A stretch of DNA of 64,000 bases from Escherichia coli. GTDB taxonomy: Bacteria > Pseudomonadota > Gammaproteobacteria > Enterobacterales > Enterobacteriaceae. Shown here piece after piece: positions 42,480 to 58,112 of this stretch (within the stretch, counting starts at the first letter, position 1; each line of letters opens with the position of its first letter). Position numbers and translations under genes: made by a program. The notes below the pieces were generated by a model. The model was not told the origin of the DNA. It searched no databases and was given only the letters and a program-made list of their open reading frames with translations. The stretch lies in the NCBI RefSeq assembly GCF_044647545.1, contig NZ_CP172818.1; one strand, written 5' to 3'.

Positions 42480-43202
42480 ATGGGTAAAACCCAGCCCTTG
42501 CCAATATTAATTACTGGCGGTGGTCGTCGCATCGGCCTCGCCCTCGCCTGGCATTTCATTAATCAAAAGCAACCGGTGATTATCAGCTATCGGACGCACT
42601 ATCCAGCCATTGATGGACTGATTAACGCAGGTGCGCAGTGTATTCAGGCTGATTTTTCGACCAACGACGGTGTGATGGCGTTTGCCGATGAAGTACTAAA
42701 AAGCACCCATGGCCTGCGTGCTATTTTGCATAACGCCAGCGCGTGGATGGCGGAAAAACCGGGTGCGCTACTGACCGACGTACTGGCTTGCATGATGCAG
42801 ATCCACGTTAATACCCCATACCTGCTCAACCATGCTCTGGAAAGATTACTGCGTGGGCACGGACACGCCGCCAGCGATATCATTCACTTTACCGATTATG
42901 TGGTGGAGCGCGGTAGCGATAAACATATTGCGTATGCTGCAAGCAAAGCGGCACTGGATAATATGACCCGCTCGTTTGCCCGCAAGCTGGCACCGGAAGT
43001 GAAAGTGAATTCTATTGCGCCATCGCTGATCCTGTTTAATGAACATGATGATGCCGAATATCGACAACAGGCGCTGAATAAATCACTGATGAAAACAGCG
43101 CCTGGCGAGAAAGAAGTGATCGACCTGGTCGATTACTTACTTACCAGCTGCTTTGTCACCGGACGCAGTTTCCCTCTTGATGGCGGTCGTCATCTGCGTT
43201 AA
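42480..43202 (+). CDS. folM: Dihydromonapterin reductase (SDR family)
   Basis: 240 aa; TGGGRRIG cofactor motif, YxxxK. Confidence 0.9.
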   Translation: MGKTQPLPILITGGGRRIGLALAWHFINQKQPVIISYRTHYPAIDGLINAGAQCIQADFSTNDGVMAFADEVLKSTHGLRAILHNASAWMAEKPGALLTDVLACMMQIHVNTPYLLNHALERLLRGHGHAASDIIHFTDYVVERGSDKHIAYAASKAALDNMTRSFARKLAPEVKVNSIAPSLILFNEHDDAEYRQQALNKSLMKTAPGEKEVIDLVDYLLTSCFVTGRSFPLDGGRHLR

Positions 43203-43534
43203 TGCAGCTTTATCCAGCATATAATCAACACCCATGCGCTTATTCCCCAGCACGCAACAGAGCCAACAAAAGCAGCGGGCAAGCGCATCATTCCGGTGAA
43301 ATACCACAGCGACGCCAGGTAAACAAAATAGGGAATAATCGACCACATACTAAAAATGATGGTTGCGCGTAAGGCTTCAATGCCGCGTTCGCTGGCAACA
43401 ATATAATGCGCGATAAGCGCAAAGGTCGGGAAAAGTGGAATCAGCCCGGCGATATAATAATTTTTCGTTTTTGCTAAAACACCAATCAACAGCACTACCA
43501 GCGCACCGAGCGCGGCTTTGATTACCAGCCCCAT
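43199..43534 (-). CDS. ydgC: GlpM-family inner membrane protein
   Basis: 111 aa, 4 TM; overlaps folM stop. Confidence 0.85.
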   Translation of the reverse strand: MGLVIKAALGALVVLLIGVLAKTKNYYIAGLIPLFPTFALIAHYIVASERGIEALRATIIFSMWSIIPYFVYLASLWYFTGMMRLPAAFVGSVACWGISAWVLIICWIKLH

Positions 43535-43662
43535 CTTTTTACCTTAACACTTCCATAACAAGTCATCAGTAGAATACCTGATGAAACCTTGTTTAGAAAC
43601 GATTGATAGTAAGTAAAAACAGTGCGGTGTATTGTGACGTTTTTATATCTACCGTGAATGTT

Positions 43663-44382
43663 ATGAACACTATCGTATTTGTGGAAGATGATGCGGAAGT
43701 CGGTTCACTGATTGCTGCGTACCTGGCAAAACATGATATGCAGGTTACCGTGGAACCGCGCGGCGACCGGGCCGAAGAAACTATTCTGCGAGAAAATCCG
43801 GATTTGGTGTTACTCGATATCATGCTACCAGGCAAGGACGGCATGACCATTTGTCGTGATTTACGCGCAAAGTGGTCCGGACCGATTGTTCTTCTAACCT
43901 CTCTCGATAGCGATATGAACCACATCCTGGCACTGGAAATGGGCGCCTGCGACTATATTCTCAAAACGACGCCCCCTGCTGTTTTGCTAGCGCGTTTACG
44001 TTTGCATTTGCGTCAGAATGAGCAAGCTACAGTGACCAAAGGTATTCAGGAAACGTCTCTGACTCCCTACAAAGCCCTGCATTTCGGCACGTTGACCATC
44101 GATCCCATCAACCGCGTAGTCACCCTGGCTAACACTGAAATCTCGCTCTCGACAGCTGATTTCGAATTATTGTGGGAATTAGCTACCCATGCCGGGCAAA
44201 TCATGGACCGCGATGCATTGCTGAAAAATTTACGCGGCGTCAGTTATGACGGTCTGGATCGTAGCGTGGACGTGGCTATTTCGCGGTTAAGAAAAAAACT
44301 GCTCGATAACGCCGCAGAACCTTATCGTATTAAAACCGTGCGTAACAAAGGCTATCTTTTTGCGCCTCATGCGTGGGAATAA
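43663..44382 (+). CDS. rstA: OmpR-family response regulator RstA
   Basis: 239 aa from MNTIVFVEDD; receiver domain plus winged-helix. Confidence 0.9.
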   Translation: MNTIVFVEDDAEVGSLIAAYLAKHDMQVTVEPRGDRAEETILRENPDLVLLDIMLPGKDGMTICRDLRAKWSGPIVLLTSLDSDMNHILALEMGACDYILKTTPPAVLLARLRLHLRQNEQATVTKGIQETSLTPYKALHFGTLTIDPINRVVTLANTEISLSTADFELLWELATHAGQIMDRDALLKNLRGVSYDGLDRSVDVAISRLRKKLLDNAAEPYRIKTVRNKGYLFAPHAWE

Positions 44383-44385
44383 GCG

Positions 44386-45687
44386 ATGAAAAAACTGTTT
44401 ATCCAGTTTTACCTGTTATTGTTTGTCTGCTTCCTTGTGATGTCTCTGCTGGTCGGGCTGGTGTACAAATTTACCGCCGAACGCGCAGGCAAACAGTCGC
44501 TGGATGATTTGATGAACAGTTCGCTGTATCTGATGCGCAGCGAATTGCGTGAGATCCCCCCACACGACTGGGGTAAGACGCTGAAAGAGATGGATTTAAA
44601 TCTCTCTTTCGATCTGCGTGTCGAGCCGCTGAGTAAATACCATCTTGATGATATTTCCATGCACCGGCTGCGTGGCGGCGAAATTGTCGCTCTGGACGAT
44701 CAGTACACCTTTTTGCAACGTATCCCGCGCAGCCACTACGTGCTGGCAGTTGGTCCTGTTCCTTATCTTTATTACCTCCATCAGATGCGATTGCTGGATA
44801 TCGCCCTGATCGCTTTTATTGCCATTTCCCTCGCCTTTCCGGTGTTTATCTGGATGCGTCCGCACTGGCAGGATATGTTAAAACTGGAAGCAGCGGCGCA
44901 ACGATTTGGCGATGGGCATCTCAATGAACGTATCCACTTTGATGAGGGTTCGAGCTTTGAACGACTTGGTGTTGCATTTAACCAGATGGCGGACAATATC
45001 AACGCCTTGATTGCCAGCAAAAAACAGCTTATTGACGGTATCGCTCACGAACTGCGAACACCGTTAGTGCGCCTGCGTTATCGACTGGAGATGAGCGATA
45101 ACCTGAGCGCCGCCGAATCCCAGGCGTTGAACCGCGATATCAGTCAACTTGAAGCTTTAATTGAAGAGCTTCTGACTTATGCCCGACTCGATCGCCCACA
45201 AAACGAGCTTCATCTTAGCGAACCAGACCTGCCGTTGTGGCTGTCAACGCATCTGGCAGACATTCAGGCAGTAACGCCCGATAAAACGGTACGGATAAAA
45301 ACGCTCGCGCAAGGCCATTATGCGGCGTTGGATATGCGCTTAATGGAGCGTGTGCTGGATAATTTGCTCAATAACGCCCTGCGCTACTGTCATTCAACGG
45401 TTGAAACCAGCCTGCTACTGTCGGGGAATAGAGCGACATTAATTGTTGAGGATGATGGCCCAGGGATTGCCCCAGAAAACCGCGAACATATCTTTGAACC
45501 TTTTGTTCGCCTCGATCCCAGCCGGGATCGCTCAACCGGCGGCTGCGGGCTGGGGCTGGCCATTGTCCACTCTATAGCACTGGCAATGGGCGGTACGGCT
45601 AATTGTGACACCAGCGAACTGGGTGGTGCCCGCTTCTCGTTCAGCTGGCCGTTATGGCATAACATCCCGCAATTTACCTCTGCCTGA
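44386..45687 (+). CDS. rstB: Sensor histidine kinase RstB
   Basis: 433 aa; two TM, HAMP, H-box (HELRTP), ATPase G-box. Confidence 0.9.
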   Translation: MKKLFIQFYLLLFVCFLVMSLLVGLVYKFTAERAGKQSLDDLMNSSLYLMRSELREIPPHDWGKTLKEMDLNLSFDLRVEPLSKYHLDDISMHRLRGGEIVALDDQYTFLQRIPRSHYVLAVGPVPYLYYLHQMRLLDIALIAFIAISLAFPVFIWMRPHWQDMLKLEAAAQRFGDGHLNERIHFDEGSSFERLGVAFNQMADNINALIASKKQLIDGIAHELRTPLVRLRYRLEMSDNLSAAESQALNRDISQLEALIEELLTYARLDRPQNELHLSEPDLPLWLSTHLADIQAVTPDKTVRIKTLAQGHYAALDMRLMERVLDNLLNNALRYCHSTVETSLLLSGNRATLIVEDDGPGIAPENREHIFEPFVRLDPSRDRSTGGCGLGLAIVHSIALAMGGTANCDTSELGGARFSFSWPLWHNIPQFTSA

Positions 45688-49881: not shown

Positions 49882-50079
49882 TGTTCTCTCACTTACTGCC
49901 TGGTTTGGTTATGCTCTGGGCGGGTGTTCCGTTGCCCTGTTAAAAGCGAGTAACAATATCCTACACACTTTTTTAACAAAAACTGAGACTAGTACGACTT
50001 TTTGCGGCTCCAGGTTACTTCCCGTAGGATTCTTGCTTTAATAGCGGGATTAATTTCCACATTTAAACAGGGATTGATC

Positions 50080-51255
50080 ATGCAAAAACTCATTAACTCA
50101 GTGCAAAACTATGCCTGGGGCAGCAAAACGGCGTTGACTGAACTTTATGGTATGGAAAATCCGTCCAGCCAGCCGATGGCCGAGCTGTGGATGGGCGCAC
50201 ATCCGAAAAGCAGTTCACGGGTGCAGAATGCCGCCGGAGATATCGTTTCACTGCGTGATGTGATTGAGAGTGATAAAGCGACTCTTTTGGGAGATGCCGT
50301 TGCCAAACGCTTTGGCGAACTGCCTTTCCTGTTCAAAGTATTATGCGCAGCACAGCCGCTCTCCATTCAGGTTCATCCAAACAAACGCAATTCTGAAATC
50401 GGTTTTGCCAAAGAAAATGCCGCAGGTATTCCGATGGATGCCGCCGAGCGTAACTATAAAGATCCTAACCACAAGCCGGAGCTGGTTTTTGCGCTGACGC
50501 CTTTCCTTGCGATGAACGCGTTTCGTGATTTTTCCGAGATTGTCTCCCTGCTCCAGCCGGTCGCAGGTGCACATCCGGCGATTGCTCACTTTTTACAACA
50601 GCCTGATGCCGAACGTTTAAGCGAACTGTTCGCCAGCCTGTTGAATATGCAGGGTGAAGAAAAATCCCGCGCGCTGGCGATTTTAAAATCGGCCCTCGAC
50701 AGCCAGCAGGGTGAACCGTGGCAAACGATTCGTTTAATTTCTGAATTTTACCCGGAAGACAGCGGTCTGTTCTCCCCGCTATTGCTGAATGTGGTGAAAT
50801 TGAACCCTGGCGAAGCGATGTTCCTGTTCGCTGAAACACCGCACGCTTACCTGCAAGGCGTGGCGCTGGAAGTGATGGCGAACTCCGATAACGTGCTGCG
50901 TGCAGGTCTGACGCCTAAATACATTGATATTCCGGAACTGGTTGCCAATGTGAAGTTCGAAGCCAAACCGGCTAACCAGTTGTTGACCCAGCCGGTGAAA
51001 CAAGGTGCAGAACTGGACTTCCCGATTCCTGTTGATGATTTTGCCTTCTCGCTGCATGATCTTAGTGATAAAGAAACCAACATCAGCCAGCAGAGTGCCG
51101 CCATTTTGTTCTGCGTCGAAGGCGATGCAACGCTGTGTAAAGGTTCTCAGCAGTTACAGCTTAAACCGGGTGAATCAGCGTTTATTGCCGCCAACGAATC
51201 ACCGGTGACTGTCAAAGGCCACGGCCGTTTAGCGCGTGTTTACAACAAGCTGTAA
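50080..51255 (+). CDS. manA: Mannose-6-phosphate isomerase
   Basis: 391 aa from MQKLINSVQNYAWGSK. Confidence 0.95.
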   Translation: MQKLINSVQNYAWGSKTALTELYGMENPSSQPMAELWMGAHPKSSSRVQNAAGDIVSLRDVIESDKATLLGDAVAKRFGELPFLFKVLCAAQPLSIQVHPNKRNSEIGFAKENAAGIPMDAAERNYKDPNHKPELVFALTPFLAMNAFRDFSEIVSLLQPVAGAHPAIAHFLQQPDAERLSELFASLLNMQGEEKSRALAILKSALDSQQGEPWQTIRLISEFYPEDSGLFSPLLLNVVKLNPGEAMFLFAETPHAYLQGVALEVMANSDNVLRAGLTPKYIDIPELVANVKFEAKPANQLLTQPVKQGAELDFPIPVDDFAFSLHDLSDKETNISQQSAAILFCVEGDATLCKGSQQLQLKPGESAFIAANESPVTVKGHGRLARVYNKL

Positions 51256-51355: not shown

Positions 51356-52864
51356 ATGAATAAATCGCTGGTAGCGGTAGGCGTCATTGTTGCGCTAGGC
51401 GTAGTCTGGACAGGCGGCGCATGGTATACAGGCAAGAAGATTGAAACCCATCTCGAAGACATGGTCGCGCAGGCGAACGCGCAACTCAAACTGACCGCTC
51501 CTGAATCCAACCTGGAAGTGAGTTATCAAAACTATCATCGCGGCGTATTCAGCAGTCAGCTGCAACTGTTGGTGAAACCCATTGCCGGGAAAGAAAATCC
51601 GTGGATTAAAAGCGGTCAGAGCGTCATCTTCAACGAATCGGTTGATCATGGTCCCTTCCCCCGTGCCCAGCTAAAAAAACTGAACCTGATCCCGTCGATG
51701 GCATCAATTCAAACCACGCTGGTTAATAACGAAGTTAGCAAGCCACTGTTTGATATGGCAAAAGGTGAAACGCCTTTTGAGATTAACTCCCGCATTGGTT
51801 ACAGCGGAGATTCCAGTTCCGATATTTCGCTCAAGCCGCTGAATTACGAGCAAAAGGATGAAAAAGTCGCCTTTAGCGGCGGCGAGTTCCAGTTAAATGC
51901 GGACAGAGACGGCAAAGCTATCTCCCTTTCCGGAGAGGCGGAAAGTGGTCGGATAGACGCAGTTAACGAATACAACCAGAAAGTACAGTTGACCTTTAAT
52001 AATCTGAAAACCGACGGTTCCAGCACGCTGGCAAGTTTTGGTGAGCGCGTAGGAAACCAAAAACTGTCACTGGAAAAAATGACCATTTCAGTGGAAGGCA
52101 AAGAACTGGCACTGCTGGAAGGCATGGAGATCAGCGGTAAATCGGATCTGGTCAATGACGGTAAAACGATCAATAGCCAACTGGATTACTCGCTAAACAG
52201 CCTGAAGGTACAGAATCAGGATCTGGGCAGCGGCAAGCTGACTTTAAAAGTCGGCCAGATTGATGGTGAAGCCTGGCATCAGTTTAGCCAGCAATATAAC
52301 GCGCAAACTCAGGCGCTGCTGGCACAGCCAAAAATTGCCAACAATCCCGAACTTTATCAGGAGAAAGTGACGGAAGCCTTCTTTAGCGCCCTGCCGCTGA
52401 TGTTGAAAGGCGATCCGGTGATTACTATCGCGCCGCTAAGCTGGAAAAACAGTCAGGGTGAAAGTGCGCTGAATCTGTCGCTGTTCCTGAAAGATCCGGC
52501 AACAACTAAAGAAGCGCCGCAAACGCTGGCGCAGGAAGTGGACCGCTCGGTTAAATCTCTGGATGCGAAACTGACCATTCCGGTGGATATGGCAACTGAG
52601 TTGATGACTCAGGTAGCGAAGCTGGAAGGTTATCAGGAAGATCAAGCGAAAAAACTGGCGAAACAGCAAGTTGAAGGTGCATCAGCAATGGGGCAGATGT
52701 TCCGTCTGACCACCTTGCAGGACAATACCATCACCACCAGCCTGCAATATGCTAACGGTCAGATAACGTTAAACGGGCAGAAAATGCCACTGGAAGATTT
52801 CGTGGGTATGTTTGCGATGCCGACATTAAACGTTCCGGCTGTACCCGCTATTCCGCAGCAGTAA
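51356..52864 (+). CDS. ydgA: DUF945 family periplasmic/membrane-anchored protein
   Basis: 502 aa, N-terminal TM/signal. Confidence 0.85.
   Translation: MNKSLVAVGVIVALGVVWTGGAWYTGKKIETHLEDMVAQANAQLKLTAPESNLEVSYQNYHRGVFSSQLQLLVKPIAGKENPWIKSGQSVIFNESVDHGPFPRAQLKKLNLIPSMASIQTTLVNNEVSKPLFDMAKGETPFEINSRIGYSGDSSSDISLKPLNYEQKDEKVAFSGGEFQLNADRDGKAISLSGEAESGRIDAVNEYNQKVQLTFNNLKTDGSSTLASFGERVGNQKLSLEKMTISVEGKELALLEGMEISGKSDLVNDGKTINSQLDYSLNSLKVQNQDLGSGKLTLKVGQIDGEAWHQFSQQYNAQTQALLAQPKIANNPELYQEKVTEAFFSALPLMLKGDPVITIAPLSWKNSQGESALNLSLFLKDPATTKEAPQTLAQEVDRSVKSLDAKLTIPVDMATELMTQVAKLEGYQEDQAKKLAKQQVEGASAMGQMFRLTTLQDNTITTSLQYANGQITLNGQKMPLEDFVGMFAMPTLNVPAVPAIPQQ

Positions 52865-55316: not shown

Positions 55317-58112
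<2,796 letters not shown>

What the first reader, a model, noticed from the sequence alone, without database searches (positions are those of the whole stretch)
43590..43606. Possible PhoP-box-like direct repeat upstream of rstA
TGTTTA-gaaac-GATTGA lies ~60-70 nt upstream of the rstA start. The first half matches the PhoP half-site (T/G)GTTTA but the second is weak, so this is a low-confidence candidate.
Basis: inference. Interest (0 to 1): 0.2.

Follow-up and report, generated by a model that had tools for sequence, protein, structure and literature searches.

The report
Known PhoP box of rstA promoter

Summary
The motif TGTTTA-GAAAC-GATTGA is at window 43590-43606, 57-73 nt upstream of the annotated rstA ATG (43663), on an E. 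coli chromosome. It is the known PhoP box of the rstA promoter. A published compilation of PhoP binding sites lists "rstA: TTGTTTAG---CGATTGAT E. Coli", which equals window 43589-43607. It is also the positional ortholog of the Salmonella rstA box, which has been DNase I-footprinted.

The layout matches Salmonella "architecture III". The box lies in direct orientation, next to a poor -35-equivalent (TAGTAA), and 23 nt upstream of the -10 hexamer (TATTGT, 43630-43635). By homology the transcription start is near 43641.

A matrix built from 25 footprinted Salmonella boxes, with rstA left out, nevertheless ranks this site first of 127,964 positions in the window. The box is exact in 5412 of 5426 complete E. 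coli genomes, although bases just upstream of it vary. It holds the same 23-nt register in 40 of 80 Enterobacteriaceae species.

Verdict: observation confirmed, interpretation supported, already known, low interest. One side observation may be new. In Enterobacter, Lelliottia and Leclercia the box appears to have moved one helical turn closer to the promoter.

The parts
43590..43606 (+). PhoP box of the rstA promoter. Distal half-site TGTTTA (43590-43595), 5-nt spacer GAAAC, proximal half-site GATTGA (43601-43606). Direct orientation relative to rstA.
   Evidence: Sequence. Matrix rank 1 of 127,964. Identical to the published E. coli rstA PhoP site. Ortholog of the footprinted Salmonella box. 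Exact in 5412 of 5426 E. coli genomes.
43607..43612 (+). -35-equivalent hexamer TAGTAA (3 of 6 matches to TTGACA), directly next to the box. It aligns with the Salmonella -35 assignment TGGAAG.
   Evidence: Zwir 2012 Table 2 gives the Salmonella rstA -35 as TGGAAG with a 17-nt spacer. Ungapped alignment anchored on the -10. Inferred by homology, not mapped here.
43613..43629 (+). 17-nt promoter spacer. Its length is conserved across genera but its sequence is not.
   Evidence: Per-column conservation across 31 genus-level representatives is near zero here, and the alignment stays ungapped.
43630..43635 (+). -10 hexamer TATTGT (Salmonella TATGTT), inside the nearly invariant block GGTGTAT. It lies exactly 23 nt downstream of the box.
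   Evidence: Sequence. Zwir 2012 reports a 23-nt box-to-(-10) distance and TATGTT for Salmonella rstA. GGTGTAT is the best-conserved block of the intergenic region.
43641..43641 (+). Predicted rstA transcription start (within about 2 nt). This gives a leader of about 22 nt and places the box centre near -43.
   Evidence: Transferred from Salmonella: start 5 nt after the -10 and a 21-nt leader. The E. coli distance from box to ATG is 1 nt longer. Inference, not mapped here.
43663..44382 (+). rstA coding sequence (response regulator, 239 aa). It is followed by rstB at 44386-45687.
   Evidence: ORF list. RefSeq annotation of the 100% identical genome.
43199..43534 (-). ydgC (GlpM family), the divergently transcribed neighbour. 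The 128-nt intergenic region 43535-43662 holds the box.

Best explanation
This is the PhoP box of the E. coli rstAB promoter. When PhoQ senses low Mg2+, mild acid or cationic peptides, it phosphorylates PhoP. A PhoP-P dimer binds head to tail to the direct repeat TGTTTA-N5-GATTGA. The box is centred near -43 and lies next to a poor -35 element, 23 nt upstream of the -10 hexamer TATTGT. From there PhoP recruits RNA polymerase through the alpha C-terminal domain and activates rstAB transcription. This links the PhoQP system to the RstBA system, whose targets include asr, csgD, ompF and omrB. Shown here: the sequence, its matrix score, its exact spacing to the -10, and its conservation within E. 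coli and across Enterobacteriaceae. Taken from papers: PhoP footprinting, orientation dependence and alpha-CTD dependence in Salmonella; PhoP-P gel shift in Shigella; PhoP-dependent rstA expression in E. coli; and the listing of this exact sequence as an E. coli PhoP site. Inferred by homology: the E. coli transcription start and the alpha-CTD mechanism in E. coli.
For: 1) Window 43589-43607, TTGTTTAGAAACGATTGAT, equals 'rstA: TTGTTTAG---CGATTGAT E. Coli' in the PhoP binding-site set of Harari 2010 (PMC2908699 Fig. S2).
2) The Salmonella rstA box TCGTTTAGAAAAGATTTAT was footprinted with PhoP-P (20 nt protected). It is a single box in direct orientation, 23 nt from the -10 TATGTT. It needs alpha-CTD in vitro, and reversing its 17 nt abolishes reporter activity (PMC3335776). 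The window has the same geometry: 23 nt from the box to TATTGT.
3) The matrix built without rstA ranks the site 1 of 127,964, with 0.175 expected per random window.
4) The 30-mer 43588-43617 is exact in 5412 of 5426 complete E. coli genomes. The 30-mer shifted 4 nt upstream is exact in only 1471, so the box is invariant next to polymorphic flanks.
5) In 80 Enterobacteriaceae species, 40 keep a box of at least 12 bits at exactly the 23-nt register. Conservation peaks on the box and the -10, not on the spacer.
6) rstA expression depends on PhoP in E. coli. Activation by pRstAB is abolished in a phoP deletion, and RstA protein level tracks Mg2+ limitation (PMC13425233). rstAB is up-regulated when PhoQP is hyperactive (PMC10746255). 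An rstA reporter responds in a graded way to PhoP level (PMC13215669). In Shigella, rstA falls to 0.07 of wild type in a phoPQ deletion, and PhoP-P shifts the rstAB upstream fragment (PMC5775216).
Against: The primary E. coli paper (Minagawa 2003) could not be read, so no E. coli footprint or start-site mapping was seen directly. The E. coli start site and alpha-CTD dependence are transferred from Salmonella. The proximal half-site departs from the textbook consensus at 2 of 6 positions. A plain consensus search does not single the site out. A hexamers-only matrix gives 0.5 equally good sites per random window. The simple sigma-70 scan finds no promoter in 43480-43720, which is expected for an activator-dependent promoter with a poor -35 but gives no positive support.
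Confidence: 0.95

Rival explanations
1. The box acts, also or instead, on the divergent ydgC promoter. A conserved block 14-22 nt upstream of the box reads TATTCT on the minus strand (TATGCT in other genera), which is a plausible -10 for ydgC. The matching -35 position would fall inside the PhoP box, so bound PhoP could repress or activate ydgC.
For: The block cAGCATAACGGAA (E. coli GTAGAATACCTGATG, window 43568-43583) is conserved across genera. It lies 36-49 nt upstream of the ydgC ATG at 43534. The intergenic region is only 128 nt.
Against: No ydgC start site or PhoP effect on ydgC was found in the papers read. The putative -35 (TTTCTA) is poor. The promoter scan found nothing on either strand. 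In Salmonella the box works only in the orientation facing rstA. This would add to the rstA function rather than replace it.
Confidence: 0.1
2. The repeat is bound mainly by another OmpR/PhoB-family regulator, for example BasR/PmrA (whose half-sites resemble TTAAT) or RstA itself, rather than by PhoP.
For: In most genera the proximal half-site is GATTAAT, which resembles the PmrA half-site known from the literature (my own knowledge, not tested here). Members of this family share the direct-repeat, 11-bp-period layout.
Against: PhoP-P footprints the orthologous Salmonella site and shifts the Shigella fragment. rstA expression depends on phoP in E. coli and Shigella. The distal half TGTTTA is a perfect PhoP hexamer. 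No sequence resembling the RstA box is present in the region, by inspection only.
Confidence: 0.03
3. It is a chance resemblance in an AT-rich intergenic region with no regulatory role.
For: The window holds roughly 30 matches to the consensus with 2 mismatches or fewer. The hexamers-only matrix gives 0.5 equal-scoring sites per random 64 kb.
Against: The site is the top matrix hit of the window and lies exactly where the Salmonella site lies. It is invariant in 5412 of 5426 E. coli genomes beside polymorphic flanks. It is conserved in register in 40 species while the neighbouring spacer varies freely. It is published as a PhoP site.
Confidence: 0.01

Closest known systems
Salmonella enterica rstA PhoP box (Zwir et al. 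2012, promoter architecture III)
   Same: It is the orthologous position between ydgC and rstA. It is a single box in direct orientation with the same 17-nt layout. It lies 23 nt upstream of a TATxxT -10 hexamer, next to a poor -35, with a short leader (21 versus about 22 nt). 14 of the 17 box positions are identical.
   Different: There are three substitutions within the box: first base T in E. coli versus C in Salmonella, spacer C versus A, and proximal half GATTGA versus GATTTA. The -10 is TATTGT versus TATGTT. Footprinting, orientation and alpha-CTD experiments were done on the Salmonella promoter, not on this sequence.
E. coli / Salmonella architecture I PhoP promoters (phoP, mgtA, slyB, yrbL)
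   Same: They have the same direct repeat (T/G)GTTTA-N5-(T/G)GTTTA bound by a PhoP-P dimer, in direct orientation, as a single box.
   Different: In those promoters the box lies 12 nt from the -10 and overlaps the -35, and mgtA does not need alpha-CTD. Here the box is one helical turn further upstream (23 nt), and the Salmonella ortholog needs alpha-CTD.
Salmonella ompX promoter (the other architecture III member)
   Same: It has a single direct box 21-23 nt upstream of the -10.
   Different: It is an unrelated gene with a different box sequence (CGGTTGAGGGTTCGTTGAA), and its leader is 237 nt rather than about 22 nt.

Membership tests
PhoP box (PhoP-P dimer binding site) | Two hexamers resembling (T/G)GTTTA in direct repeat, separated by 5 nt | tested here: met
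   TGTTTA-GAAAC-GATTGA: distal half perfect, proximal half 4 of 6, keeping the TT and final A that carry most of the information. The matrix from 25 footprinted boxes scores it 16.2 bits, rank 1 of 127,964, above 21 of 25 leave-one-out scores.
PhoP box (PhoP-P dimer binding site) | Physical binding of phosphorylated PhoP to this DNA | not testable with these tools
   From papers only. DNase I footprint on the Salmonella ortholog (PMC3335776). Gel shift of the Shigella rstAB upstream fragment (PMC5775216). The exact E. coli sequence is listed among PhoP binding sites (PMC2908699). The primary E. coli paper (Minagawa 2003) is not held.
PhoP-activated promoter, architecture III (Zwir 2012) | Single box, direct orientation, 21-23 nt upstream of the -10 hexamer | tested here: met
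   Exactly 23 nt (43607-43629) separate the box from TATTGT. The same register holds in 40 of 80 species (distances printed there are 1 too small because of an anchor offset). No second box of comparable score exists in the intergenic region; the next best is 10.6 bits on the minus strand at 43543-43561.
PhoP-activated promoter, architecture III (Zwir 2012) | Activation requires the alpha C-terminal domain of RNA polymerase | not testable with these tools
   Shown in vitro for Salmonella rstA only. Inferred for E. coli from the identical geometry.
PhoP regulon (Mg2+ stimulon) of E. coli | Expression of the downstream gene depends on phoP and on PhoQ-inducing conditions | not testable with these tools
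   From papers: PMC13425233 (phoP deletion abolishes the effect, and RstA protein level follows Mg2+ limitation), PMC10746255, PMC13215669, and Shigella microarray and qRT-PCR.
PhoP box (PhoP-P dimer binding site) | Purifying selection on the site relative to its flanks | tested here: met
   The 30-mer covering the box is exact in 5412 of 5426 E. coli genomes, against 1471 for a 30-mer shifted 4 nt upstream. Between genera, conservation peaks on the box and the -10 and is lowest in the spacer.

The most novel reading that the evidence does not exclude
The rstA PhoP box has moved during evolution. In Enterobacter, Lelliottia, Leclercia and Huaxiibacter the distal half-site has decayed (TAATTG/TAATTT, out of register by 1 nt). 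The old proximal half-site GATTAA now pairs with a new downstream GGTTAA to form GATTAA-TGGAA-GGTTAA, exactly 12 nt from the unchanged -10. That would be a shift of one helical turn from architecture III (alpha-CTD-dependent) to architecture I (overlapping the -35) through reuse of one half-site. Some taxa appear intermediate, with three tandem half-sites (Enterobacter sp. kpr-6, UBA3516). If the new box works, this shows a path by which an activator site moves without loss of regulation. E. coli itself keeps the ancestral arrangement.
Probability: 0.35. Interest if true: 0.35.

Novelty: already known. Interest (0 to 1): 0.08.

Why it matters
The site is the link by which the PhoQ/PhoP system (low Mg2+, acid, antimicrobial peptides) turns on the RstB/RstA system. 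Through RstA it reaches acid-stress, curli, porin and small-RNA genes. That link is established, so confirming it in this window adds only a correct annotation. Two small lessons follow. A consensus-with-mismatches view undervalues real PhoP boxes, whereas a matrix from footprinted sites ranks this one first in 64 kb. The cross-genus comparison also suggests the box changed promoter architecture in the Enterobacter lineage and was lost in others, which could be a small case study in regulatory rewiring.

Tried and rejected
1) A plain consensus search (KGTTTA-N5-KGTTTA, up to 3 mismatches) gave 210 hits against about 155 expected and does not single out the site, so it was dropped as a test.

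2) Reading the primary E. coli papers failed. Minagawa 2003 (PMC161583 and by DOI), Ogasawara 2007 (PMC1913430) and Zwir 2005 (PMC549472) are not held.

3) Full-text searches for the exact box sequence returned nothing. The sequence turned up only in a supplementary figure that prints it with the spacer replaced by dashes.

4) The Shigella paper's Table 5 does not list an rstA box sequence, although rstAB was positive by gel shift.

5) Supplements of the 2026 Cell Reports paper are not held.

6) The sigma-70 promoter scan of 43480-43720 found no promoter on either strand, so it could not support either the rstA or the ydgC promoter assignment.

7) The Salmonella dRNA-seq paper gave no rstA or ydgC start coordinates in its main text.

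8) The first 30-mer population query (43584-43613) matched only 1471 genomes. This reflects polymorphism just upstream of the box, not in the box, as the second query showed.

9) In one search my -10 anchor was off by one, so the printed distances 22 and 11 correspond to true distances of 23 and 12.

Full report
**Where the window comes from.** The window is an Escherichia coli chromosome. A 401-nt stretch around the finding is 100% identical to strain FDAARGOS_497 and is present in 5422 of 5426 complete E. coli genomes, always between ydgC and rstA. RefSeq annotation of the identical genome gives folM, then ydgC on the minus strand (window 43199-43534), then rstA (ATG at 43663) and rstB. The ydgC-rstA intergenic region is 43535-43662, 128 nt long.

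**The observation.** It lies 57-73 nt upstream of the rstA ATG.
- Against the textbook pattern (T/G)GTTTA-N5-(T/G)GTTTA it has two mismatches, both in the second hexamer.
- That alone is not remarkable. The window has 210 matches at up to 3 mismatches (about 155 expected), and roughly 30 of them have 2 mismatches or fewer.

**Matrix test.** I built a 19-column weight matrix from the 25 activating PhoP boxes in Table 1 of Zwir et al. 2012 (PMC3335776), which reports DNase I footprinting of these promoters. The rstA box was left out to avoid circularity.
- The information sits mainly on the TT and the final A of each hexamer.
- GATTGA keeps all of these, and other footprinted boxes also end in ATTGA (orgB, pgtE, pipD).
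- The site scores 16.2 bits, the highest of all 127,964 positions on both strands of the window. It exceeds 21 of 25 leave-one-out scores of the real boxes.
- First-order Markov random windows contain on average 0.175 positions that good.
- With the two hexamers only, it ranks second, with 0.5 expected.

**Orthology to an experimentally defined site.** Zwir et al. 2012 give the Salmonella rstA box as TCGTTTAGAAAAGATTTAT. Their findings for it are:
- a single box in direct orientation;
- a 20-nt PhoP-P footprint;
- 23 nt upstream of the -10 hexamer TATGTT, with -35 TGGAAG at a 17-nt spacing;
- transcription start 5 nt after the -10 and a 21-nt leader;
- dependence on the alpha C-terminal domain of RNA polymerase in vitro;
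- loss of reporter activity when the 17 nt are reversed.

The window has the same layout. The box ends at 43606, followed by TAGTAA (43607-43612), a 17-nt spacer (43613-43629) and TATTGT (43630-43635), which makes exactly 23 nt. By homology the start is about 43641, the leader about 22 nt, and the box centre about -43. These last three numbers are inferred, not mapped.

**The literature on this exact E. coli sequence.** Supplementary Figure S2 of Harari et al. 2010 (PMC2908699) lists the PhoP binding sites used in that study. It includes "rstA: TTGTTTAG---CGATTGAT E. Coli" next to "rstA: TCGTTTAG---AGATTTAT Salmonella". The E. coli entry equals window 43589-43607.

PhoP control of rstA in E. 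coli and its close relatives is well documented:
- rstAB transcription is described as under positive PhoQP control, citing Minagawa 2003. Activation by a plasmid carrying rstAB is abolished in a phoP deletion, and RstA protein follows Mg2+ limitation (PMC13425233).
- rstAB rises when PhoQP is hyperactive in mgrB mutants (PMC10746255).
- An rstA reporter responds in a graded way to PhoP dose (PMC13215669).
- In Shigella flexneri, rstA falls to 0.07 of wild type in a phoPQ deletion, and PhoP-P shifts the rstAB upstream fragment (PMC5775216).

I could not read Minagawa 2003, Ogasawara 2007 or Zwir 2005.

**Conservation within E. coli.** The 30-mer 43588-43617, which covers the box, is found exactly in 5412 of 5426 complete genomes. 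A 30-mer shifted only 4 nt upstream (43584-43613) is exact in just 1471. The box is therefore fixed in the species while bases directly upstream of it are polymorphic.

**Conservation between genera.** A scan of one genome per species returned 80 RstA loci from Enterobacteriaceae.
- In the 300 nt upstream of rstA, the best matrix hit is the orthologous box. It lies on the same strand, 53-57 nt before the ATG, in a wide range of genera. These are Escherichia (5 species, identical 19-mer), Salmonella, Citrobacter, Pseudocitrobacter, Pluralibacter, Phytobacter, Kosakonia, Trabulsiella, Superficieibacter, Yokenella, Franconibacter, Intestinirhabdus and Pseudescherichia.
- Anchoring on the nearly invariant GGTGTAT of the -10 gives an ungapped alignment. 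Conservation is high on the box, on the -10 and on one further upstream block, and near zero in the 17-nt spacer.
- Forty of the 80 loci have a box of at least 12 bits at exactly the 23-nt register (the distances printed there are one too small because of my anchor).

**Mechanism.** This is the PhoP box through which PhoP-P activates rstAB. The PhoP-P dimer binds head to tail, one helical turn upstream of the position used at phoP or mgtA. It compensates for a poor -35 by recruiting RNA polymerase through alpha-CTD. The binding and alpha-CTD steps are shown for Salmonella and inferred for E. coli.

**Rivals.**
- Chance match: contradicted by everything above.
- A different family member binding here: contradicted by the PhoP footprint and by phoP dependence.
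- An extra role at the divergent ydgC promoter: not excluded but unsupported.

**Side observations.**
- In Enterobacter, Lelliottia, Leclercia and Huaxiibacter the distal half-site has decayed. GATTAA-TGGAA-GGTTAA forms a new box of 9.4-11.4 bits exactly 12 nt from the -10, which is the architecture I distance.
- Klebsiella oxytoca-group species, Kluyvera, K. indica, Cedecea and Brenneria show no box. This fits the published loss of PhoP control of rstA in Yersinia (PMC2650801).

**Verdict.** Interest is low.

Noticed in passing
L029, L031, L034, L036, L037, L040, L047, L049-L051, L055, L061, L063, L068 (about 45-75 nt upstream of rstA, locus positions about 1425-1455): In Enterobacter, Lelliottia, Leclercia and Huaxiibacter the distal PhoP half-site is degenerate. 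GATTAA-TGGAA-GGTTAA forms a box of 9.4-11.4 bits exactly 12 nt from the unchanged -10. The PhoP box appears to have moved one helical turn (architecture III to I), reusing the old proximal half-site. Enterobacter sp. kpr-6 (L062) and UBA3516 (L076) look intermediate, with three tandem half-sites.
   Followed up: partly
L025, L027, L028, L030, L032, L041, L044, L046, L073, L080 (upstream of rstA): Klebsiella oxytoca-group species, Kluyvera, K. indica, Cedecea and Brenneria have no recognisable PhoP box, and often no GGTGTAT -10 block, upstream of rstA. This suggests lineage-specific loss or replacement of PhoP control, as published for Yersinia.
   Followed up: partly
window 43568-43583: A block upstream of the box is conserved across genera (cAGCATAACGGAA; E. 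coli GTAGAATACCTGATG). On the minus strand it reads TATTCT/TATGCT, a plausible -10 for the divergent ydgC gene, whose -35 would then fall inside the PhoP box. On the plus strand TAGAAT (43570-43575) could equally be a -10 of an upstream rstA promoter. The promoter scan found neither.
   Followed up: partly
window 43563-43584: There is a perfect 7-bp inverted repeat, TCATCAG-N8-CTGATGA, directly upstream of the PhoP box. It was flagged as terminator-like on both strands although it lies between divergent genes. It is only partly kept in other Escherichia species and is absent in other genera. It could be an operator for a dimeric regulator or could be fortuitous.
   Followed up: no
window 43579-43584: TGATGA lies 11 bp upstream of TGTTTA, giving three half-site-like hexamers at 11-bp period (TGATGA, TGTTTA, GATTGA). 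The overlapping 17-mer 43579-43595 is a 2-mismatch consensus match. It is not conserved outside Escherichia and is polymorphic within E. coli (for example GATGCA).
   Followed up: partly
window 51226-51242: CGTTTAGCGCGTGTTTA is the only 1-mismatch match to the PhoP consensus in the window (13.8 bits on the matrix). It lies in the last codons of the ORF 50002-51255, about 114 nt upstream of the next ORF (51356-52864). I know of no PhoP link for this position.
   Followed up: no
window 56383-56401: This is the second-best PhoP matrix hit in the window (CGTTTTACCTTTTATTTAT, 15.7 bits). It lies just beyond the start of the minus-strand ORF 55317-56345 and inside the 5' part of the mechanical ORF 56316-58112, so it may be intergenic if that ORF really starts further downstream. 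It is AT/T-rich and could be compositional.
   Followed up: no
window 43400-43800: This stretch is at least 99% identical in only 301 of 5422 E. coli genomes and 95-99% identical in 5119, so the window comes from a minority lineage at this locus. One record carries the region on a plasmid.
   Followed up: no
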